A stretch of DNA of 64,000 bases, from assembly GCF_054482525.1 (NCBI RefSeq), contig NZ_CM137006.1, one strand, 5' to 3'. Positions 3,034 to 58,119 of this stretch are shown here, piece by piece. The stretch's first letter is position 1. Each line of letters begins with the position of its first letter. Below the pieces are notes generated by a model, which had not been told where the DNA came from, did no database searches, and saw only the letters and a program-made list of their open reading frames with translations. The translations under genes and the position numbers were made by a program.

Positions 3034-3155
3034 CCTCTTCGGCCCAGCGCCTGGCAGCATGCTGCCAGGTGATCCCCCTGGGCCACCTCTTTTGCGATTG
3101 TAATTTCACGCTTGCTGGTGAATAGTCAGTATTTTCCCTGACTTGCGAACTCACC

Positions 3156-3923: not shown

Positions 3924-5345
3924 TCAGGCTTTCACATCACTCACTGCACCGACCGGAATATCAGCATGAACAGGCTCGGGCGGTACTTTGCGATATTTAT
4001 CCAGCAGATGGATCTGGATCCTGCGCAGCGTGTCACCATTGAGGCGATAGAAACGGAAGTAGAGAATCAGCGTTACCATGAAAAACAGAGTCGGTAGAGC
4101 AATCATAATAAACTGCATACCTAATAGGGCTTGCGTAGACTGTTCAACATTCGGTACATAGCCAATCATCCCTAACACAACCGCAATGAAAAAAGCCGCA
4201 AAGGCTGAACCGCCCTTCACCACCATAGTCTGCACGGAGTAAGCGATGCTTTCACAGCGTACGTGCAGTTTATATTCACCGTAATCAACGGTATCTGCCA
4301 CCATGATGACCTGTAATACCCAGAAAAGCGCCGTTCCCACATTCAGCAAGATACCCGCAATCACAATGAGGACGACGTTGTGATAGCTCATTAATGCCAT
4401 TAACAGGAGAACACCACAGCTTAACACCGGAAGAATAGATGCTCCGGCCCATAAAATGCGTCGGGATAATGATTTAACTAAGCGTGGGAAGAATACTAAC
4501 GTCACCAGATTAGCAGCTCCCGCATACGACAGATAATAGGGGAACAAATCCGCATCACCGATAACATATGAGAAATAATAGATAGCAAAGCCGGTAATAA
4601 TATTGCTGGCTACATTATAAGCAAGAGCCATACCCAAGAGGCATGAAAGCTGATCGTTTTTATAAATAAGCGCAACGATGGCTTTAAGTGTCAGATGGCT
4701 TCCTTCAGCAGACGGTTGATTGTCTGACGAAAAGACTTCATGCACATTGCGCAGAGTGATGATGGTTGAAACAATAAAAAAGGCGATCAGTACCAGAGTG
4801 AACATCTGAAAGCCAAATCCCCGATCGCCACCGCCGACATAATTAACAAATGGTAGCGTCACACCTGCCGTAACAAAGCCCGCCAGACTGGCAAAAAAAC
4901 GCGGATAAGGAACCAGTTGTTCGCGCTCACGTTTATCGAGCGTTATGGTTGGAACCAGCGACCAGAAGGGAATATCCATAATGGTGTAAGTCATGCCCCA
5001 GAGGATGTAGGTCACGCAAACAAAGACAATCTGAGTAGTACCTTCAAACAGATGCGCACTAAAGAGGAGAAATAAGATTACAGAGTTTGCCAACGTACCG
5101 ATCAGGATCCAGGGTTTGAACTTACCCCATCGCGATCGCGTAGCATTTACAATCCATCCCATAATCGGATCGTTAATAGCATCCCAGATCCTCGCCACCA
5201 GAAACAAAGTACCGACCAAACCCACAGACAGCCCGACGACATCGGTGTAGTAATACATGAGGTACATATACACAATGCCGATCGCAAAATCCTTCCCGAA
5301 CGCTCCAAATCCATAACTGAGTTTTGTAGTCATTGAAATGCTCAT
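3924..5345 (-). CDS. melB: Melibiose:cation symporter MelB, 473 aa
   Basis: Translation begins [20 protein letters not shown]…; start chosen at the second in-frame ATG of the listed ORF to match MelB length. Confidence 0.92.
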
Positions 5346-5447: not shown

Positions 5448-6803
5448 TTAACGGTGCAACCAGCCTGGTAGCCAGTCGCCGTGGGCGGCAATCAGGTCGT
5501 CAACAAGAGCATATATTTCGTCAATGCCCAGCACGGCGGCAGTATGCGGGTCCATCATCGCGGCGTGGTAAACACGGTCGCGATTTTCCGTAAGAATGGC
5601 TTCGGTCAGCAGCGTCTGTACGTTGATGTTGGTTTGCATCAGAGCGGCCAGATGCGAAGGTAGCGTACCGACTTTGGTCGGCTGAATGCCATTAGCATCA
5701 ACCAGACAGGCCACTTCCACACAACATCCTTGTGGCAGGTTATCAATCAATCCATCGTTACGGACGTTGCCGTAAATCACACTCGGCTCGCCAGTCCAGA
5801 TAGCGTTCATGATTGTGCTGGCATATTCCCGTGACGGTTTAATATCAATCCGAGAGGCGTTCTTATACTCCTCCAGCTCTTTATGCCAGTTCGCCAGCTG
5901 CTCGACGCAGCGTTTCGGGTACTCATCCAGCGGTACTTTATAACGCTCAATCAAATCCTCACGACCTGGCTTAATAAACCACGGTGTGTACTCAGCAAAA
6001 TGTTCTGACGATTCCGTGACGAAGTAGCCCAGCTTTTTGAACATTTCATAGCGCACAATATTCTGGCAGCGAGTATTGCCATGAATATTCGGCTTCGGTG
6101 CCTGCCCTGCTTCATAAGCCGCCAGCAGTTCCGGGTAGAGATTCACGTAACTGCCGTCGGCGGTTTTGCGCTCCAGTTCCAGGTAAAACGCCATATGGTT
6201 GATACCTGCGCAACGGTAACGCAGCGTAGCCGGGTCGATATTGAGGTCACGCGCCAGCTCTTCCGCCGTTCCCTGCACCGAATGGCACAGCCCTACCTGT
6301 TTGATATGCGGATAGCGGGCATACATCGCCCAGGTATTCATCGCCATTGGGTTAACGTAGTTGAGCATAGTGGCATCGGGGCAAACTTCCGTCATGTCCT
6401 CGCAAATTTGCCACAGGTGCGGAATGGTACGTAGCGCGCGCATAATACCGCCCGGCCCCAACGTATCGGCAATGGTTTGTTCCAGACCATGCCGCTTACA
6501 GACCTCGAAATCAGTCACCGTGCAAGGTTCATAACCGCCAATCTGAAATGCCACCACGACAAAATCGGCATCCTGTAAGGCTTCTTTCTGTTGGATGTGG
6601 CAGGTGATTTTGCCGCTGGCCCCTGCTGAATCCATCAGCTTGCGCACCACAATATGCGACTCTTCCAGGCGGGTGGGATCAATGTCCATCAGGGCAATAT
6701 GCGCCGTTTTCAGCGCCTCGCGATGGAACACATCACCAAGAATATTTTTAACGAAAATCGTCGAACCAGCGCCGATAAATGTAATTTTGGGTGCAGACAT
6801 CAT
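5448..6803 (-). CDS. melA: Alpha-galactosidase MelA (NAD/Mn-dependent family 4 glycosidase), 451 aa
   Basis: Full ORF; N-terminal Rossmann motif (KITFIGAGST); upstream of melB in same orientation. Confidence 0.93.
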   Translation of the reverse strand: MMSAPKITFIGAGSTIFVKNILGDVFHREALKTAHIALMDIDPTRLEESHIVVRKLMDSAGASGKITCHIQQKEALQDADFVVVAFQIGGYEPCTVTDFEVCKRHGLEQTIADTLGPGGIMRALRTIPHLWQICEDMTEVCPDATMLNYVNPMAMNTWAMYARYPHIKQVGLCHSVQGTAEELARDLNIDPATLRYRCAGINHMAFYLELERKTADGSYVNLYPELLAAYEAGQAPKPNIHGNTRCQNIVRYEMFKKLGYFVTESSEHFAEYTPWFIKPGREDLIERYKVPLDEYPKRCVEQLANWHKELEEYKNASRIDIKPSREYASTIMNAIWTGEPSVIYGNVRNDGLIDNLPQGCCVEVACLVDANGIQPTKVGTLPSHLAALMQTNINVQTLLTEAILTENRDRVYHAAMMDPHTAAVLGIDEIYALVDDLIAAHGDWLPGWLHR

Positions 6804-6880
6804 GCAGATCTCCTGGCTTGCTTGAATAACTTCATCATGGCAGGCGAATCTGCAGAAAACCTCCGGCTTCCAGGTTGAGC

Positions 6881-6936
6881 ATTCCCATAAACTCAGATCC
6901 TACGTGAAGCATCAATAAATCTGAGTTTATGGGAAT
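6881..6936. promoter_or_regulatory. melAB promoter operator region: perfect inverted repeat attcccataaactcagat / atctgagtttatgggaat separated by 20 bp (probable MelR sites)
   Basis: Palindrome read from sequence, located in melA-melR divergent intergenic region; assignment to MelR by established knowledge of melAB regulation. Confidence 0.55.
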
Positions 6937-7663
6937 AAATTACCTGAAAAGCAGAGTTTTCGGCCTCAGAATGCTCGGATGGTCCCCTCGCCTCTCTGGG
7001 AAGAGAGTGAAAACCGTGCTCCCACTCGCAGTCATCTTCCTGCACTCCTGCCATAATTCTGATATTCCAGGAAAGAGAGCCATCCATGAATACAGATACG
7101 TTTATGTGCAGCAGCGACGAAAAACAGACCCGCAGCCCGCTGTCGCTGTATTCGGAATACCAGCGGATGGAGATTGAGTTTCGCGCACCGCATATCATGC
7201 CCACCAGCCACTGGCATGGTCAGGTCGAAGTGAATGTGCCTTTCGATGGCGATGTGGAATACCTGATCAACAATGAAAAAGTGAGTATCAATCAGGGACA
7301 TATCACGCTGTTCTGGGCCTGTACACCGCACCAACTAACAGATACCGGAACCTGTCAGAGCATGGCGATTTTTAATCTGCCGATGCATCTGTTTCTCTCC
7401 TGGCCGCTGGATAAAGACCTGATTAACCACGTCACTCACGGCATGGTGATCAAATCACTGGCGACACAGCAACTTAGCCCGTTTGAAGTGCGCCGCTGGC
7501 AGCAGGAATTGAACAGTCCGAACGAGCAAATTCGCCAGCTCGCCATTGATGAAATTGGCCTGATGCTCAAGCGATTTAGCCTCTCTGGCTGGGAACCGAT
7601 TCTGGTCAATAAAACCTCGCGCACACACAAAAACAGCGTCTCGCGCCATGCGCAATTTTATGT

Positions 7664-7676
7664 CAGCCAGATGCTG
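7664..7676. repeat. Left copy of 13 bp target-site duplication (cagccagatgctg) of IS4
   Basis: Identical 13-mer found at 9103..9115 directly abutting the other IS4 end. Confidence 0.85.
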
Positions 7677-9102
7677 TAATGCCAGTCAGTTAAGCAACTG
7701 ACTGGCTCTTTTTCGGGGCTGTGGGGTATTTCCAGGGCCTCTCCTTTACCACTCTCGGGAAGGCCCTTTCCCTTCTTGTCGGTAATTTCACAAGTTGTCC
7801 CATACTTGCAAGATCGCGCATCAGCTCCGGTATACGTCCCGGTGAAGCGCCCTGCAATGTCATCAGCATTCTCATCACCATTCCGCATGATTCTGAGAAA
7901 CTCAGTTGATTCGGCCAGTAACCTTTCAGATGTTCCGCCATTTTAATCATCTGATATCTCACCAGATTATAAGCCAGTAAGACACCCCACAGCTCTTGCT
8001 CCACAAGCTCCGGTTTTTTACTTCTCAGCGTCAGCCTGCTCAGTTGCATCGTCTGTTTTATCTCCCTGTATCCCAGTTCGATTTCCCAGCGATGACTGTA
8101 CAGATCCGCCATTTCTCCTCCGGGGAAGCGCATGGCGTCCGTCATCGACGTCAGCAGATGGCAGACTTTTCCTTTGCGCGTCACGGTCAGCAGGCGGGCT
8201 GTCACTTCATTTCCCAGTCCCGGCCACTTTTTTCGTGCCTGCGGGCTGGTTTTCAGCTTCACCAGATGATCGCCTTTACCCAGTTTTCTGATCTCTTCAT
8301 ATTGCGCTCCCTTTCTGAGAGGTATCATCCAGTGGCGGTGTTCTCCCGCCAGGCTCCAGGCATTTAACAGTCCCAGTGAGTAATAACCTTTATCCATTAA
8401 CGTCAGAGTGTTATCGCCGGTTTGTTCTATAAGTTGCTCAGCAAGCTCATTTTCGCTGTTCTTCATCGTGCCGAAGGCTGCAGCCGTCAGCAGATGGCTG
8501 GTCAGTTCCATCTGGCAGACCATTTTGACCTGCGGGTAGAGCGCCGGGTTCCCGGCATGTGTCTGGCGGGGGAAGGCTGCATCGTTCTCTAGTGTATCCG
8601 GTGTGCGCCAGAACACACCATCGATGGCCAGCAGGGTCAGGCCGCACCAGTGCGGATGCGGCGTGGCGTTATGCCAGAGCTGCGCTGTTTTCGTGAACAC
8701 GCGGCGGACAGCCTCACTTCCCAGGCGCTGGCGGGCCTGAATAACGGCACTGGGGGCAACGAAGGGGCGATTGCCCGGCAGCATGATGTCCAGGCGATTC
8801 ACAATCTGGTGAAGAGGTTCTTTACGCTCAAGCGCCATGCCAACAATACACCAGACCATCATTTCGAGGGGAAGACGGCGCTTGCGTAGCGTTACAGTAC
8901 CTGATTCGGCAAGGCAACGAGAGATGAGTTCGGGGTCGAGGTAATCCCCCAGAGAAGTCAGTGGGTTACGCAGAGAATCGTAACGGGATACCAGATCAAG
9001 AGCCTGTCCAATGTGCATAAAAAAATCCGGAAACAAGTGAGCGTTTCCGGATTCTTACACAGCCACTGGATCGGTCAACTGATCCTTAACTGATCGGCAT
9101 TA
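7677..9102 (-). mobile_element. IS4 insertion sequence, complete (1426 bp) with imperfect terminal inverted repeats (taatgcc…/…ggcatta)
   Basis: Length and terminal repeats; internal transposase ORF; flanked by 13 bp direct repeat cagccagatgctg. Confidence 0.9.
7690..9018 (-). CDS. insG: IS4 transposase (InsG-like, DDE family), about 442 aa
   Basis: ORF inside IS4; translation matches IS4 transposase; start placed at MHIGQALD… (listed ORF begins 6 codons earlier). Confidence 0.85.
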
Positions 9103-9115
9103 CAGCCAGATGCTG
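9103..9115. repeat. Right copy of 13 bp target-site duplication of IS4
   Basis: Identical to 7664..7676. Confidence 0.85.
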
Positions 9116-9631
9116 GGCTTTATTGCCGAAAACTATGATCAGGCGCTGACCATCAACGATGTGGCTGAGCACGTCAAACTTAACGCCAACTATGCAATGG
9201 GGATATTCCAGCGGGTCATGCAATTGACGATGAAACAGTACATTACCGCGATGCGCATCAACCACGTTCGCGCGTTACTGAGCGATACCGATAAAAGTAT
9301 TCTCGATATTGCCCTGACGGCAGGCTTTCGTTCGAGTAGCCGTTTTTACAGCACGTTCGGCAAATATGTCGGCATGTCACCGCAACAATACCGCAAACTT
9401 AGCCAACAGCGCCGCCAGACGTTTCCCGGCTAAAGACGATATCAGTATCAGCCAAAAAAATAGTTTAGCCGTCGATAATAAGCAGTGAAAATAATTTAAA
9501 ATAATCACATAACATATTGTTTATAAAAACAAATATTTCAAAAATGTTTGTTTTTCACGCGCTTTACAGCCCGAAAAGGCCGGAAGATACTTGCCCGCAA
9601 CGAAGATTCCTTCATAACCGGGTAAGCAATG

Positions 9632-11899
9632 ATGAAAGTATTAATTGTTGAAAGCGAGTTTCTCCATCAAGACACCTGGGTCGGTAACGCCGTTGAGCGT
9701 CTGGCTGATGCTTTAAGCCAGCAAAATGTTACCGTGATTAAATCCACCTCCTTTGATGATGGTTTTGCCATTCTCTCTTCAAACGAAGCCATTGACTGCC
9801 TGATGTTCAGCTATCAAATGGAACATCCGGACGAACATCAAAACGTCAGACAATTGATCGGTAAGCTTCATGAGCGCCAACAAAACGTGCCGGTCTTCCT
9901 GTTGGGCGATCGGGAAAAAGCCCTCGCCGCAATGGACCGGGATCTGCTGGAGCTTGTCGATGAATTCGCCTGGATTCTGGAAGATACCGCCGACTTTATC
10001 GCCGGACGCGCCGTTGCCGCGATGACCCGCTACCGCCAGCAACTGTTGCCGCCACTGTTCAGCGCGCTGATGAAATATAGCGACATCCATGAATATTCCT
10101 GGGCAGCGCCAGGCCACCAGGGTGGCGTTGGTTTTACCAAAACACCCGCCGGACGTTTCTACCATGACTACTATGGTGAAAACCTGTTCCGCACCGACAT
10201 GGGCATCGAACGAACTTCCCTCGGTTCTTTGCTTGACCATACTGGCGCATTTGGCGAAAGCGAAAAATATGCCGCACGCGTATTTGGTGCCGATCGCTCC
10301 TGGTCGGTAGTCGTCGGTACTTCCGGCTCTAACCGCACCATCATGCAGGCTTGCATGACCGATAACGATGTCGTGGTCGTTGACCGTAACTGCCATAAAT
10401 CCATCGAACAAGGCTTGATGCTGACAGGCGCGAAACCGGTCTACATGGTGCCAAGCCGCAACCGCTACGGCATTATCGGGCCAATCTATCCGCAGGAAAT
10501 GCAACCTGAAACCTTGCAGAAGAAAATCAGTGAAAGCCCGCTGACTAAAGACAAAGCCGGGCAAAAACCGTCTTACTGCGTAGTGACCAACTGTACCTAT
10601 GACGGCGTGTGTTATAACGCTAAAGAAGCGCAGGATCTGCTGGAAAAAACCTCCGATCGGCTGCACTTTGACGAAGCCTGGTACGGCTATGCACGTTTCA
10701 ACCCGATCTATACCGATCACTATGCCATGCGCGGCGAACCTGGCGATCACAACGGTCCTACCGTTTTCGCCACCCACTCCACCCACAAACTGCTGAATGC
10801 GCTGTCACAGGCCTCTTATATTCATGTACGTGAAGGTCGTGGGGCGATTAACTTCTCTCGCTTCAACCAGGCCTACATGATGCATGCCACCACCTCCCCG
10901 CTGTATGCCATCTGCGCATCTAACGACGTGGCGGTGTCGATGATGGACGGCAACAGCGGCCTGTCACTGACCCAGGAAGTGATCGACGAAGCGGTTGATT
11001 TCCGTCAGGCGATGGCGCGGCTGTATAAAGAGTTCACCGCTGACGGTAGCTGGTTCTTCAAACCGTGGAACAAAGAAGTCGTCACCGACCCACAAACCGG
11101 CAAAACCTATGACTTTGCTGACGCACCAACCAAACTGCTGACCACCGTTCAGGACTGCTGGGTAATGCATCCGGGCGAAAGCTGGCACGGCTTCAAAGAT
11201 ATTCCGGATAACTGGAGTATGCTCGACCCGATTAAAGTCAGCATCCTTGCTCCGGGAATGGGTGAAGATGGTGAACTGGAAGAAACCGGTGTTCCAGCGG
11301 CGCTAGTCACTGCCTGGCTTGGTCGCCACGGCATTGTGCCTACCCGCACCACTGACTTCCAAATTATGTTCCTGTTCTCTATGGGCGTAACCCGTGGGAA
11401 ATGGGGGACTCTGGTTAACACCCTTTGCTCCTTCAAACGCCACTATGACGCCAACACACCGCTGGCGCAGGTGATGCCGGAACTTGTTGAACAATATCCT
11501 GACACTTACGCGAACATGGGGATTCACGATCTGGGTGACACCATGTTTGCCTGGCTGAAAGAAAACAACCCTGGCGCACGGTTGAACGAAGCCTATTCCG
11601 GCCTGCCGGTGGCGGAAATCACCCCACGTGAAGCGTACAACGCGATTGTCGACAACAATGTCGAACTGGTATCCATTGAAAATCTGCCAGGACGCATCGC
11701 GGCAAACTCAGTTATCCCGTATCCGCCAGGAATCCCGATGCTGCTGTCTGGTGAAAACTTCGGCGATAAAAACAGTCCGCAAGTAAGTTATTTACGCTCG
11801 CTGCAATCCTGGGACCATCATTTCCCTGGATTTGAACACGAAACAGAAGGGACAGAAATTATTGACGGTATTTACCACGTTATGTGTGTGAAAGCGTAA
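9632..11899 (+). CDS. adiA: Biodegradative (acid-inducible) arginine decarboxylase AdiA, PLP-dependent, 755 aa
   Basis: Translation MKVLIVESEF…; Orn/Lys/Arg decarboxylase architecture; followed by adiY and adiC. Confidence 0.93.
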   Translation: MKVLIVESEFLHQDTWVGNAVERLADALSQQNVTVIKSTSFDDGFAILSSNEAIDCLMFSYQMEHPDEHQNVRQLIGKLHERQQNVPVFLLGDREKALAAMDRDLLELVDEFAWILEDTADFIAGRAVAAMTRYRQQLLPPLFSALMKYSDIHEYSWAAPGHQGGVGFTKTPAGRFYHDYYGENLFRTDMGIERTSLGSLLDHTGAFGESEKYAARVFGADRSWSVVVGTSGSNRTIMQACMTDNDVVVVDRNCHKSIEQGLMLTGAKPVYMVPSRNRYGIIGPIYPQEMQPETLQKKISESPLTKDKAGQKPSYCVVTNCTYDGVCYNAKEAQDLLEKTSDRLHFDEAWYGYARFNPIYTDHYAMRGEPGDHNGPTVFATHSTHKLLNALSQASYIHVREGRGAINFSRFNQAYMMHATTSPLYAICASNDVAVSMMDGNSGLSLTQEVIDEAVDFRQAMARLYKEFTADGSWFFKPWNKEVVTDPQTGKTYDFADAPTKLLTTVQDCWVMHPGESWHGFKDIPDNWSMLDPIKVSILAPGMGEDGELEETGVPAALVTAWLGRHGIVPTRTTDFQIMFLFSMGVTRGKWGTLVNTLCSFKRHYDANTPLAQVMPELVEQYPDTYANMGIHDLGDTMFAWLKENNPGARLNEAYSGLPVAEITPREAYNAIVDNNVELVSIENLPGRIAANSVIPYPPGIPMLLSGENFGDKNSPQVSYLRSLQSWDHHFPGFEHETEGTEIIDGIYHVMCVKA

Positions 11900-26331: not shown

Positions 26332-26334
26332 TGT

Positions 26335-26452
26335 GCTCGATCGGTCCCCTCTCCCTTGAGGGAGAGGGTTAGGGTGAGGGGGAAATGCGCACGCTGATGC
26401 CCTCACCCCGGCCCTCTCCCACAGGGAGAGGGAGAAAACATTAAACGGAGCA
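26335..26452. repeat. GC-rich palindromic intergenic repeat (Box C/RSA-like; units cccctctccc…gggagaggg and ccctcacccc)
   Basis: Read directly; a permuted inverted copy occurs at 35336..35490. Confidence 0.7.
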
Positions 26453-35891: not shown

Positions 35892-36226
35892 TCAATTTCT
35901 CCGCTGCTCTATTGCCGTAATCGCCTCCACGCGTTGTTGATGACGACCGCCTTCGTACTGCGCGCCCAGCCACGCATCCACAATCATTTTTGCCAGTTCG
36001 AGGCCAACCACTCGTGAACCAAAAGCCAGTGCAACTTCACTGGCGTAATGCGGATAATCAGTACGCTCTGACGACCTGGTTTCTTTATCAATCCCCTCAC
36101 TCATTGACCATGAATAAAAGGCTGGCACAGCAACGCAGAATCCTGCGGTGCCAGCGACATGACCGCCCATTGCTCCGGTACGTTTTTTAATAAAAAACAC
36201 CGGTTGCATTGATTAATTGTGCTCAG
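35892..36226 (-). pseudogene. rpiB: rpiB (ribose-5-phosphate isomerase B) remnant: C-terminal about 67 codons recognisable, internal segment missing, 5-prime part unrelated
   Basis: Translation ends …AFGSRVVGLELAKMIVDAWLGAQYEGGRHQQRVEAITAIEQRRN which I recognise as the RpiB C-terminus; …SSERTDYPHYAS… is also present, but the segment between (with the catalytic Cys) is absent and the N-terminal 38 codons do not resemble RpiB. Confidence 0.5.
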
Positions 36227-36241
36227 GGTAATGACTCCAAC

Positions 36242-36745
36242 TTATTGATAGTGTTTTATGTTCAGATAATGCCCGATGACTTTGTCATGCAGCTCCACCG
36301 ATTTTGAGAACGACAGCGACTTCCGTCCCAGCCGTGCCAGGTGCTGCCTCAGATTCAGGTTATGCCGCTCAATTCGCTGCGTATATCGCTTGCTGATTAC
36401 GTGCAGCTTTCCCTTCAGGCGGGATTCATACAGCGGCCAGCCATCCGTCATCCATATCACCACGTCAAAGGGTGACAGCAGGCTCATAAGACGCCCCAGC
36501 GTCGCCATAGTGCGTTCACCGAATACGTGCGCAACAACCGTCTTCCGGAGACTGTCATACGCGTAAAACAGCCAGCGCTGGCGCGATTTAGCCCCGACAT
36601 AGCCCCACTGTTCGTCCATTTCCGCGCAGACGATGACGTCACTGCCCGGCTGTATGCGCGAGGTTACCGACTGCGGCCTGAGTTTTTTAAGTGACGTAAA
36701 ATCGTGTTGAGGCCAACGCCCATAATGCGGGCAGTTGCCCGGCAT
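36242..36745 (-). CDS. insB: IS1 InsB frame, 167 aa (expressed as InsAB-prime transposase by -1 frameshift)
   Basis: Translation matches IS1 InsB; overlaps insA 3-prime end around the ttaaaaaactc slippery motif. Confidence 0.9.
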
Positions 36746-36939
36746 CCAACGCCATTCATGGCCATATCAATGATTTTCTGGTGCGTACCGGGTTGAGAAG
36801 CGGTGTAAGTGAACTGCAGTTGCCATGTTTTACGGCAGTGAGAGCAGAGATAGCGCTGATGTCCGGCGGTGCTTTTGCCGTTACGCACCACCCCGTCAGT
36901 AGCTGAACAGGAGGGACAGCTGATAGAAACAGAAGCCAC
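36664..36939 (-). CDS. insA: IS1 InsA, 91 aa
   Basis: [43 protein letters not shown]… zinc-finger/HTH protein of IS1. Confidence 0.92.
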
Positions 36940-37238
36940 TGGAGCACCTCAAAAACACCATCATACACTAAATCAGTAAGTTGGCAGCATCACCTGTGCT
37001 CAGTATTTGCCGAAGTACAATATATATAATAAATATATAAAACACCTCATATTATTTACAGAGATAATAAATTCGCGTACTTTTCCCTCTTCAGCACAAA
37101 TGCCTAATAAAGTGGCGCGTTCAGCTCACACTTCTACTTATTAAAGTCGCAATTTCCCAATTATGATAACGCCAGCTTTAAATGACGTATTTTGCATGGA
37201 TTACATATTTACGACATAAATGATAAATGGAGATTTAT

Positions 37239-57902: not shown

Positions 57903-57937
57903 GCCGGATGCGGCGTATAACGCCTTATCCGGTCTAC
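57903..57937. repeat. REP element (gccggatgcggcgtataacgccttatccggtctac)
   Basis: Canonical REP between acs and yjcH. Confidence 0.75.
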
Positions 57938-58119
57938 ACGCCCCTTTCTTTATAGTGGGAAAGGGCAAATATAAAAATTCCCCTAAGTATTTCGCGTTGC
58001 AGGAAGGAAGCAAGCGAGCATCTCCCCAGGAGCATAGAAAACTATGTGACTGGGGAAGGCGAGTGCGGCTGACGAACCTGCGGCGTGAAAGACGACGGGG
58101 AACCTCTGGAGAATCTGTG

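What the first reader, a model, noticed from the sequence alone, without database searches (positions are those of the whole stretch)
6881..6936. Intact symmetric operator pair at the melAB promoter despite disruption of its activator gene
There is a perfect 18 bp inverted repeat with a 20 bp spacer (attcccataaactcagat … atctgagtttatgggaat) in the melA-melR divergent region. The cis elements are preserved while melR is split by IS4, so the strain offers a natural test of whether the N-terminal fragment (no HTH) or the free HTH fragment has residual or dominant-negative activity.
Basis: partly seen in the sequence, partly recalled or inferred. Interest (0 to 1): 0.3.

Follow-up and report, generated by a model that had tools for sequence, protein, structure and literature searches.

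The report
Known MelR sites beside IS4-broken melR
The perfect 18-bp inverted repeat is real, but it is the textbook pair of MelR activator-binding sites (Site 2 and Site 1, with a weak CRP site between them) of the E. coli melibiose operon, and it is intact only because the IS4 insertion that split melR is very recent.

Summary
ATTCCCATAAACTCAGAT (6881-6898) and its exact reverse complement (6919-6936) are separated by 20 bp. This is the longest perfect inverted repeat in the 64-kb window, with a chance expectation of about 4e-5. It lies between divergent melA (5448-6803, minus strand) and melR (from 7086, plus strand).

The arms are the well-studied MelR Site 2 and Site 1. They are identical to E. 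coli K-12, where the sites were mapped. They have the published consensus G at positions 5 and 13, and they centre at -62.5 and -100.5 from the inferred melAB start. The spacer holds the low-affinity CRP1 site. They are two of five MelR sites, not a classic dimer operator.

melR is split by a complete IS4 (7677-9102, 1426 bp, 13-bp target duplication). One fragment is MelR 1-197. The other is an ORF for M196-G302 that carries the whole AraC-type DNA-binding domain.

Removing IS4 in silico restores a 302-aa MelR and leaves 8.3 kb only 1 nt different from melR+ strain PCN033. The cis sites have therefore had no time to decay. No promoter or ribosome-binding site was found for the DNA-binding fragment.

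This is already known biology and of low interest.

The parts
6881..6898 (-). MelR Site 2. It is a consensus 18-mer that reads ATCTGAGTTTATGGGAAT on the minus strand. Its centre is -62.5 from the inferred melAB start.
   Evidence: It is a perfect arm of the inverted repeat and is identical to K-12. The consensus has G at positions 5 and 13, as stated in PMC2377442. Its orientation is opposite to site R, as published.
6899..6918 (.). The 20-bp spacer, which carries the low-affinity CRP1 site. The 22-mer is 6898-6919, centred at -81.5 on the dyad axis.
   Evidence: [quoted passage not shown] PMC1635313 says CRP needs MelR to bind this low-affinity site. Only 6/22 positions match the CRP consensus. 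It is the most variable of the named binding sites: 9/20 columns vary among E. coli alleles. Three positions differ from K-12: 6902, 6912 and 6915.
6919..6936 (+). MelR Site 1. It is a consensus 18-mer, ATCTGAGTTTATGGGAAT, centred at -100.5.
   Evidence: It is a perfect arm and is identical to K-12. Only 1/18 columns vary among nine E. coli alleles.
6861..6878 (.). MelR Site 2', placed from the published position. It is a weak site centred at -42.5 that overlaps the melAB -35 region.
   Evidence: PMC2377442 states that site 2' exists and that it is occupied only with melibiose. The position -42.5 is from my memory of Belyaeva et al. 2000. The sequence match to the consensus is poor: 3/18 on the minus strand and 7/18 on the plus strand (and my own count). 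The sequence is identical to K-12.
6939..6956 (.). MelR Site 1', centred at -120.5.
   Evidence: This is the third-best match to the 18-mer in the whole intergenic region and falls exactly at this centre. It matches 12/18 on the minus strand, including G5 and G13. PMC2377442 states that site 1' exists. I could not read the published orientation.
6827..6839 (-). The melAB core promoter: -10 hexamer CATGAT (6834-6839) and inferred transcript start at 6827.
   Evidence: The start is inferred from three facts. The melR start lies 237 bp upstream of the melAB start. The melR -10 is CATAAT at 7052-7057. CRP2 lies about 41 bp upstream of the melR start. The sequence was read, and the stretch is identical to K-12.
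7012..7033 (.). The CRP2 site (cores CGTGC-N6-TCGCA), centred at -41.5 from the melR start. It activates the melR promoter.
   Evidence: PMC2377442. It matches the CRP consensus at 12/22 positions. No difference from K-12.
7052..7074 (+). The melR promoter -10 CATAAT (7052-7057), the inferred start at 7064, and MelR Site R (7057-7074, TTCTGATATTCCAGGAAA).
   Evidence: The paper gives the -10 as CATAAT. It says site R overlaps the start, has consensus G at position 5 and non-consensus A at position 13, and is oriented opposite to site 2. All of this is matched here. None of the 18 columns varies among the nine alleles.
5448..6803 (-). melA (alpha-galactosidase). It is intact at 451 aa.
   Evidence: It differs from K-12 at 3 aa and from PCN033 at 1 aa.
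3924..5345 (-). melB (melibiose permease). It is intact at 473 aa.
   Evidence: It differs from K-12 at 1 aa.
7086..7679 (+). The melR 5' fragment, encoding MelR residues 1-197. The stop codon TAA is supplied by the first three bases of IS4.
   Evidence: No AraC HTH domain was detected.
7664..7676 (.). Left copy of the 13-bp target-site duplication, CAGCCAGATGCTG.
7677..9102 (-). A complete IS4 of 1426 bp. It has terminal inverted repeats TAATGCC...GGCATTA and its transposase gene lies on the minus strand.
   Evidence: It differs at 5 nt of 1426 from the IS4 copy in yicI of strain 118UI. The transposase matches Pfam Nterm_IS4 and DDE_Tnp_1. A transposase promoter-like site runs 9078 to 9051, and a terminator-like hairpin lies at 7681-7706.
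9103..9115 (.). Right copy of the 13-bp target-site duplication. It contains the ATG (9110) of MelR codon 196.
9110..9433 (+). The melR 3' fragment. The ORF encodes M196-G302 (107 aa) and holds the complete two-HTH AraC-type DNA-binding domain. There is no sign that it is expressed.
   Evidence: Pfam HTH_18 at 2e-20 and HTH_AraC at 6e-25. No plus-strand promoter-like site lies upstream. The upstream sequence CGGCATTACAGCCAG has no Shine-Dalgarno.

Best explanation
The inverted repeat is the pair of high-affinity MelR binding sites, Site 2 (6881-6898) and Site 1 (6919-6936), in the E. coli melR-melAB divergent control region.

[quoted passage not shown] Residue N222 contacts base pair 5 and R273 contacts base pair 13. 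The arms are identical because both are the consensus site. They are inverted because the two subunits face each other across a weak CRP site (CRP1) that fills the 20-bp spacer.

With the flanking weaker sites 2' and 1', the complex holds four MelR subunits and one CRP dimer. Melibiose lets MelR occupy site 2', which overlaps the -35 region, and this switches on melAB. Without melibiose, the upstream sites help MelR bound at Site R to repress melR.

In this strain a complete IS4 inserted at melR codon 197/198, just upstream of the DNA-binding domain. The strain therefore makes at most a DNA-binding-less MelR 1-197. That fragment is probably de-repressed, because autoregulation needs the DNA-binding domain. 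I predict that melAB is silent and the strain is melibiose-negative, even though melA, melB and every cis element are intact. The cis sites are intact simply because the insertion is evolutionarily very recent.

Shown here: the sequence identity, the geometry, the IS4 anatomy and the recency of the insertion. Taken from the literature: the binding and the mechanism. Inferred: the Mel-negative phenotype, de-repression of the truncated transcript, and non-expression of the HTH fragment.
For: The inverted repeat is exact and far beyond chance.

The locus is melB-melA | melR-adiA and is colinear with K-12.

Both arms, the melAB promoter, site 2', site 1', CRP2 and site R are base-for-base identical to K-12 MG1655.

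PMC2377442 supports the assignment on several points:
- The consensus has G at positions 5 and 13.
- CRP1 lies between site 1 and site 2.
- The melR start is 237 bp from the melAB start.
- The melR -10 is CATAAT.
- CRP2 is about 41 bp upstream of the melR start.
- Site R has G5 and A13 and is oriented opposite to site 2.

All of these constraints are satisfied at once by start sites at 7064 and 6827. Those place the arms at -62.5 and -100.5 and the dyad at -81.5.

Variation among nine E. coli alleles fits protein-binding arms and a looser spacer. Variable columns are 1/18 in site 1, 3/18 in site 2, 0/18 in site R, 9/20 in the spacer and 28/55 in the region between site 1' and CRP2.

Citrobacter braakii, C. 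portucalensis, Serratia oryzae and Escherichia sp. E1V33 keep the arms while the spacer sequence is free and is 1 bp longer in Citrobacter. In S. oryzae the repeat lies between divergent ORFs of melA-like and melR-like length, 449 and 313 aa.

The IS4 anatomy and the two melR fragments are documented.

Recency: excision in silico gives a 302-aa MelR identical to that of PCN033, and the 8,311 bp differ at 1 nt. None of 5,426 complete E. coli genomes has this junction.

A single melR missense SNP abolishes melibiose use in Salmonella Typhimurium ST313 (PMC6333337).
Against: No binding or expression data exist for this strain.

The position numbers -62.5, -100.5, -81.5, -42.5 and -120.5 come from my memory of Belyaeva et al. 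2000. They are only indirectly confirmed by the geometry in the paper I could read.

The cross-genus conservation is biased, because the search pattern fixed 12 of the 18 bases of each arm.

The spacer matches the CRP consensus at only 6/22 positions, so CRP1 cannot be recognised from sequence alone.

Perfect symmetry is not universal. B2-type alleles have 1-2 mismatches in site 2, and an E. coli B-type allele has one mismatch in site 1.
Confidence: 0.95

Rival explanations
1. The palindrome is a classical symmetric operator bound by one dimeric regulator, such as a LacI/GalR-type repressor or CRP itself, with each arm as a half-site.
For: The dyad symmetry is perfect. CRP does act in this region.
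Against: The arms are 18 bp each and their centres are 38 bp apart, which is too far for the half-sites of one dimer. The arms contain no TGTGA/TCACA cores. The literature puts CRP in the spacer and MelR monomers on the arms. The spacer, where a dimer would centre, is the most variable of the named sites within E. coli and across genera, and its length changes by 1 bp in Citrobacter.
Confidence: 0.02
2. The repeat acts as a nucleic-acid structure (RNA hairpin, intrinsic terminator, small RNA, or a REP-like repeat or DNA cruciform) and not as protein-binding sites.
For: An 18-bp perfect stem would be very stable. Rfam gave weak hairpin-type hits at 6847-6972.
Against: The repeat lies between the divergent starts at 6827 (leftward) and 7064 (rightward), so neither promoter transcribes it. 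No T-run follows it, and the terminator scan did not call it. The Rfam hits are plant miRNA families at 24-28 bits against gathering scores above 100. The 18-mer is not repeated elsewhere in the window.
Confidence: 0.01
3. The sites are kept under selection after melR was lost because one of the two MelR fragments still uses them. Either the free HTH domain M196-G302 binds sites 1, 2 and R and gives residual, melibiose-independent or interfering activity, or MelR 1-197 acts through protein contacts.
For: The target duplication supplies an in-frame ATG, so an ORF encodes the entire DNA-binding domain. The N222 and R273 contacts lie within it. An isolated MelR DNA-binding fragment has been described as stable (title of ref. 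12).
Against: There has been no time for selection to act, because the locus differs by 1 nt in 8.3 kb from a melR+ strain. No plus-strand promoter-like site lies in the last 100 bp of IS4, there is no Shine-Dalgarno before 9110, and a terminator-like hairpin blocks read-through from the melR promoter. Activation needs occupation of the weak site 2', which in full-length MelR is melibiose-dependent and therefore depends on the N-terminal domain. There is no wild-type MelR here for any dominant-negative effect.
Confidence: 0.04

Closest known systems
[quoted passage not shown]
   Same: Both 18-bp arms have the same sequence as in K-12, with the same 20-bp spacing, the same position relative to both promoters, and the same flanking sites 2', 1', CRP2 and R. 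This is the same element in another strain.
   Different: Three substitutions fall in the CRP1 spacer (6902, 6912, 6915) and ten more lie elsewhere in the intergenic region, none of them in a MelR site or CRP2. The allele is shared with strains annotated with an intact melR, such as PCN033, so it is ordinary polymorphism.
AraC at araO2/I1-I2 and other AraC/XylS activators (RhaS, XylS)
   Same: A monomeric two-HTH DNA-binding domain recognises a site of about 17-18 bp in a set orientation. A promoter-proximal site overlaps the -35 region. Autoregulation uses distant sites and looping, and CRP is a co-activator (introduction of PMC2377442).
   Different: MelR uses four upstream sites arranged as two opposed pairs, with CRP sandwiched between them. 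CRP binding depends on MelR.
Natural loss of melibiose use through melR mutation in Salmonella Typhimurium ST313 D23580 (PMC6333337)
   Same: The regulator is inactivated while the structural genes and promoter remain. A melR lesion alone is enough to give a Mel-negative strain.
   Different: That case is a missense SNP fixed in a lineage, with additional melB SNPs. This case is a single, apparently strain-specific IS4 insertion with intact melA and melB.
IS4 (IS4 family, E. coli)
   Same: It is 1426 bp long with terminal inverted repeats, a 13-bp target duplication, and a transposase with Nterm_IS4 and DDE_Tnp_1 domains. It is 99.6% identical to the yicI copy.
   Different: The insertion site in melR was not seen in any of 5,426 complete E. 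coli genomes. The transposase differs at three amino acids.

Membership tests
MelR Site 1/Site 2 pair of the melAB promoter | Lies in the divergent melR-melA intergenic region. | tested here: met
   melA ends at 6803 (minus strand) and melR starts at 7086 (plus strand). The annotation of PCN033 and K-12 agrees.
MelR Site 1/Site 2 pair of the melAB promoter | Two identical 18-bp sequences in opposite orientation that are the MelR consensus, with G at positions 5 and 13. | tested here: met
   ATCTGAGTTTATGGGAAT occurs on both strands with G5 and G13. The paper's statement was read.
MelR Site 1/Site 2 pair of the melAB promoter | Sequence identity with the K-12 DNA on which the MelR footprints and genetics were done. 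| tested here: met
   There are 0 differences in either arm against MG1655.
MelR Site 1/Site 2 pair of the melAB promoter | Centres at -62.5 and -100.5 from the melAB start, with CRP1 between them at -81.5. | tested here: met
   The starts at 7064 and 6827 are derived from CATAAT, the 237-bp distance and CRP2 at -41.5. The target numbers themselves are from my memory of Belyaeva 2000 and were not re-read.
MelR Site 1/Site 2 pair of the melAB promoter | Physical binding of MelR to these sites in this strain or allele. | not testable with these tools
   This needs EMSA, footprinting or ChIP. In addition, this strain lacks full-length MelR.
CRP binding site (considered for the palindrome itself) | A 22-bp site with TGTGA-N6-TCACA cores. 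| tested here: not met
   The arms have no such cores. The 22-mer centred on the dyad (6898-6919) matches 6/22 with cores TACGT and TCAAT. This fits only the published low-affinity, MelR-dependent CRP1 site in the spacer.
Intrinsic terminator or structured RNA | A transcribed G+C-rich stem followed by a T-run, or a match to an RNA family. | tested here: not met
   The terminator scan did not call it. Only sub-threshold Rfam hits were found. It lies upstream of both transcript starts.
IS4 insertion sequence | Length of about 1.4 kb, terminal inverted repeats, an 11-13-bp target duplication, and a DDE transposase with the IS4 N-terminal domain. | tested here: met
   It is 1426 bp, has TAATGCC...GGCATTA ends and a 13-bp duplication, and matches Pfam PF13006 and PF01609.
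AraC/XylS-family regulator (MelR) | [quoted passage not shown] | tested here: met
   The reconstructed 302-aa protein differs from K-12 MelR by 1 aa. HTH_18 and HTH_AraC match in residues 196-302. As encoded in this strain, the gene is split.

The most novel reading that the evidence does not exclude
The IS4 target duplication happens to supply an ATG at MelR codon 196. This strain might therefore express the isolated MelR DNA-binding domain (M196-G302) from transcription leaking out of IS4. That domain could occupy Sites 1, 2 and R constitutively, giving a natural 'split AraC-family regulator' with melibiose-independent residual or interfering activity at melAB.
Probability: 0.04. Interest if true: 0.3.

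Novelty: already known. Interest (0 to 1): 0.08.

Why it matters
It matters little. The repeat is one of the best-characterised activator site pairs in E. coli. Its presence beside a freshly IS-disrupted melR is what any recent insertion would leave behind.

The only practical consequences are for annotation and phenotype. This strain should be scored as melR::IS4 and is predicted to be melibiose-negative, with intact melA and melB that a plasmid-borne melR should rescue.

The allele comparison gives a small illustration of how constraint is distributed in this control region. Site R and Site 1 are nearly invariant, Site 2 tolerates 1-2 changes in B2 strains, and the CRP1 spacer and the loop region are free to vary.

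Tried and rejected
1. I tried to read the primary papers that give the site sequences and positions: Wade 2001 (PMC125794), Michan 1995 (PMC306891), Kahramanoglou 2006 (PMC1447455) and Bourgerie 1997 (PMC146657). None is held. Searches for 'MelR173', 'MelR303' and '100.5/62.5' found nothing useful. The position numbers therefore rest on my memory plus the geometry derived from PMC2377442.

2. I searched the literature for melR together with IS4 and found no paper.

3. I looked for the same melR::IS4 junction in 5,426 complete E. coli genomes and found none. The source strain was not identified. The nearest match for this locus is PCN033.

4. I considered whether the window comes from Shigella, given the IS-disrupted sugar regulon. 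I rejected this as unlikely. The 64 kb has no other IS-sized break in colinearity with K-12, apart from a missing als-rpiB block and small indels.

5. I ran an Rfam scan of 6000-10000. It gave only sub-threshold plant miRNA hairpin hits.

6. I tried to place sites 2' and 1' by sequence alone. Site 1' is clear at 12/18 but on the minus strand. Site 2' matches too weakly to orient. I left this to the published Fe-BABE data, which I could not read.

7. The cross-species scan with the two 12-mer cores returned only four species representatives.

Full report
**Observation.** The stretch 6881-6936 reads ATTCCCATAAACTCAGAT, then CCTACGTGAAGCATCAATAA, then ATCTGAGTTTATGGGAAT. It is the longest perfect inverted repeat with a spacer of 40 nt or less in the whole 64-kb window. 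The runner-up has 14-nt arms. Twenty first-order Markov surrogates reached only 10-14 nt, and the analytic expectation is about 4e-5. The 18-mer has no third copy in the window even with three mismatches allowed. A weaker symmetry extends outwards to 6857-6960. The full arms are 76% complementary, and the outer 24 nt match at 14/24 (P about 5e-4).

**Context.** The window is colinear with E. coli K-12 from dcuB/fumB towards yjcE at 95-98.6% identity. Locally the order is:
- melB (3924-5345, minus strand)
- melA (5448-6803, minus strand)
- a 282-bp intergenic region
- melR (from 7086, plus strand)
- adiA (9629-11899, plus strand)

melA and melB are full length, with 3 and 1 amino-acid differences from K-12.

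**What the repeat is.** Both arms are base-for-base identical to K-12 MG1655, the strain in which MelR binding was mapped. The one full-text MelR paper I could read was Samarasinghe et al. 2008 (PMC2377442). It states the following:
- MelR binds two pairs of sites, 2/2' and 1/1', with CRP between the pairs.
- Consensus positions 5 and 13 are G, contacted by N222 and R273.
- The melR start lies 237 bp upstream of the melAB start.
- The melR -10 hexamer is CATAAT.
- CRP2 lies about 41 bp upstream of the melR start.
- Site R overlaps that start, has G5 and a non-consensus A13, and is oriented opposite to site 2.

In the window, CATAAT is at 7052-7057, which puts the melR start at 7064. CGTGC-N6-TCGCA is then centred at -41.5. 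TTCTGATATTCCAGGAAA (7057-7074, plus strand) has G5 and A13. The melAB start falls at 6827, behind a CATGAT -10 hexamer. The arm ATCTGAGTTTATGGGAAT has G5 and G13. It lies on the minus strand at Site 2, which is opposite to site R as published, and on the plus strand at Site 1. The arm centres are then -62.5 and -100.5 and the dyad is at -81.5. These are the positions I remember from Belyaeva et al. 2000. They are my memory and I could not re-read them. A second paper confirms that CRP needs MelR to bind its low-affinity site at melAB (PMC1635313). In line with that, the dyad-centred 22-mer matches the CRP consensus at only 6/22 positions.

**Comparative support.** The intergenic region is present in 5,400 of 5,426 complete E. 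coli genomes. I aligned nine alleles spanning 86-100% identity and counted variable columns:

| Element | Variable columns |
|---|---|
| Site R | 0/18 |
| Site 1 | 1/18 |
| Site 2 | 3/18 |
| CRP1 spacer | 9/20 |
| Region between site 1' and CRP2 | 28/55 |

Perfect symmetry is therefore common but not obligatory. ST131/B2-type alleles carry 1-2 changes in Site 2, and an E. coli B-type allele carries one change in Site 1.

I also scanned one genome per species for the two 12-nt arm cores. This found Citrobacter braakii, C. portucalensis, Serratia oryzae and Escherichia sp. E1V33. In all of them the four unforced positions of each arm are also conserved. The spacer sequence is essentially free and is 1 bp longer in Citrobacter. 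In S. oryzae the repeat lies between divergent ORFs of melA-like and melR-like length, 449 and 313 aa. This test is biased by the search pattern and counts only as supporting evidence.

**The melR disruption.** A complete IS4 occupies 7677-9102. It is 1426 bp long with TAATGCC...GGCATTA ends, and it differs at 5 nt from the IS4 copy in yicI of strain 118UI. Its transposase is intact, with Nterm_IS4 and DDE_Tnp_1 domains. It is flanked by a perfect 13-bp duplication, CAGCCAGATGCTG. The upstream fragment encodes MelR 1-197 exactly and is stopped by the TAA that begins IS4. The duplicated target provides the ATG of M196, so a 107-aa ORF (9110-9433) encodes M196-G302. That ORF holds the entire two-HTH domain, with HTH_18 at 2e-20 and HTH_AraC at 6e-25.

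Removing IS4 and one duplicate copy in silico restores a 302-aa MelR. It is identical to the MelR of E. coli PCN033 and one residue (S67N) away from K-12. Over 8,311 bp the restored locus differs from PCN033 by a single nucleotide. None of 5,426 complete E. coli genomes carries this junction. The insertion is therefore recent and apparently strain-specific.

**Consequences.** 'Cis elements preserved despite loss of the activator' needs no special explanation, because there has been no time for decay. The three spacer differences from K-12 are shared with PCN033, which is annotated with an intact melR.

The predictions are inferences, not observations:
- melAB is not activated, because the promoter depends on MelR and a single melR SNP is enough to abolish melibiose use in Salmonella ST313.
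- The truncated melR transcript is de-repressed, because autoregulation requires DNA binding at site R.
- The HTH ORF is not appreciably expressed.

Three facts support the last prediction. The only promoter-like site near the right end of IS4 points inward and is the transposase promoter (9078 to 9051, minus strand). A terminator-like hairpin with a T-run sits at 7681-7706, just inside the IS4 end that melR transcription enters. No Shine-Dalgarno precedes 9110.

A dominant-negative effect has nothing to act on in this strain. An isolated MelR DNA-binding fragment has already been produced and studied (Michan et al. 1995, title).

**Rivals.**
- A single dimeric factor using the arms as half-sites is excluded by the geometry. 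The centres are 38 bp apart, the centre is variable, and the literature places monomeric MelR on the arms.
- An RNA or terminator role is excluded. The repeat lies upstream of both divergent starts, has no T-run, and gives only sub-threshold Rfam hairpin hits.

**Verdict.** The element is the already known MelR Site 2 - CRP1 - Site 1 module. The only strain-specific feature is an ordinary recent IS4 knockout of melR. Interest is low.

Noticed in passing
window 7637-7676 and 9103-9145; L004 127-166 and 1593-1635; L017 around 1584-1623 and 3050-3092: Three independent IS4 insertions, in melR, yicI and yccA, sit in similar targets. The duplications are CAGCCAGATGCTG, CAGCCAGGTCTG and GAGCCTGACGCTG. 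Each is preceded by (T/A)TTATG/AAATG-like sequence and followed by G..TTT. BLAST alignments ran 17-22 bp past the IS ends for this reason. This fits the strong target preference that I recall being described for IS4.
   Followed up: partly
window 36030-37014: The K-12 als operon and rpiB block (about 6.8 kb, L003 16823-23661) is absent and about 985 bp of other sequence stands in its place. This is the only other large break in colinearity with K-12 in the window.
   Followed up: no
window 6939-6956: At the published centre of MelR site 1' (-120.5), the best match to the 18-mer consensus is on the minus strand: CTCTGCTTTTCAGGTAAT, 12/18, with G5 and G13. That makes it inverted relative to Site 1. 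The plus strand matches only 5/18. I could not read the published orientation (Grainger 2003) to compare.
   Followed up: partly
window 6902, 6912, 6915: All three differences from K-12 within the 56-bp repeat unit fall in the CRP1 spacer, and all three lie in the positions that would be the CRP core pentamers. The window has TACGT and TCAAT where K-12 has TGCGT and GCAGT. The overall consensus match is unchanged at 6/22 in both.
   Followed up: partly
L008, L009 and L010 (JJ1886/ST131, UPEC129, Z226-1), aligned to window 6881-6898: B2-type E. coli alleles carry 1-2 substitutions in MelR Site 2, and their intergenic region is only 86-88% identical overall. JJ1886 and Z226-1 are annotated with a melR start 24 nt further upstream. 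About 1,000 of the 5,400 genomes that have the region fall in this identity band (80-90%), so many of them probably lack the perfect palindrome.
   Followed up: partly
window 7681-7706: The left end of IS4 forms an 11-bp-stem hairpin followed by TCTTTTT, which looks like a terminator for transcription entering from melR. It would make the insertion polar and end the truncated melR transcript immediately after its stop codon.
   Followed up: no
window 26332-26445 and 57913-58101: There are small indel differences from K-12 in the phnD-phnE region and between acs and yjcH. I did not examine them.
   Followed up: no
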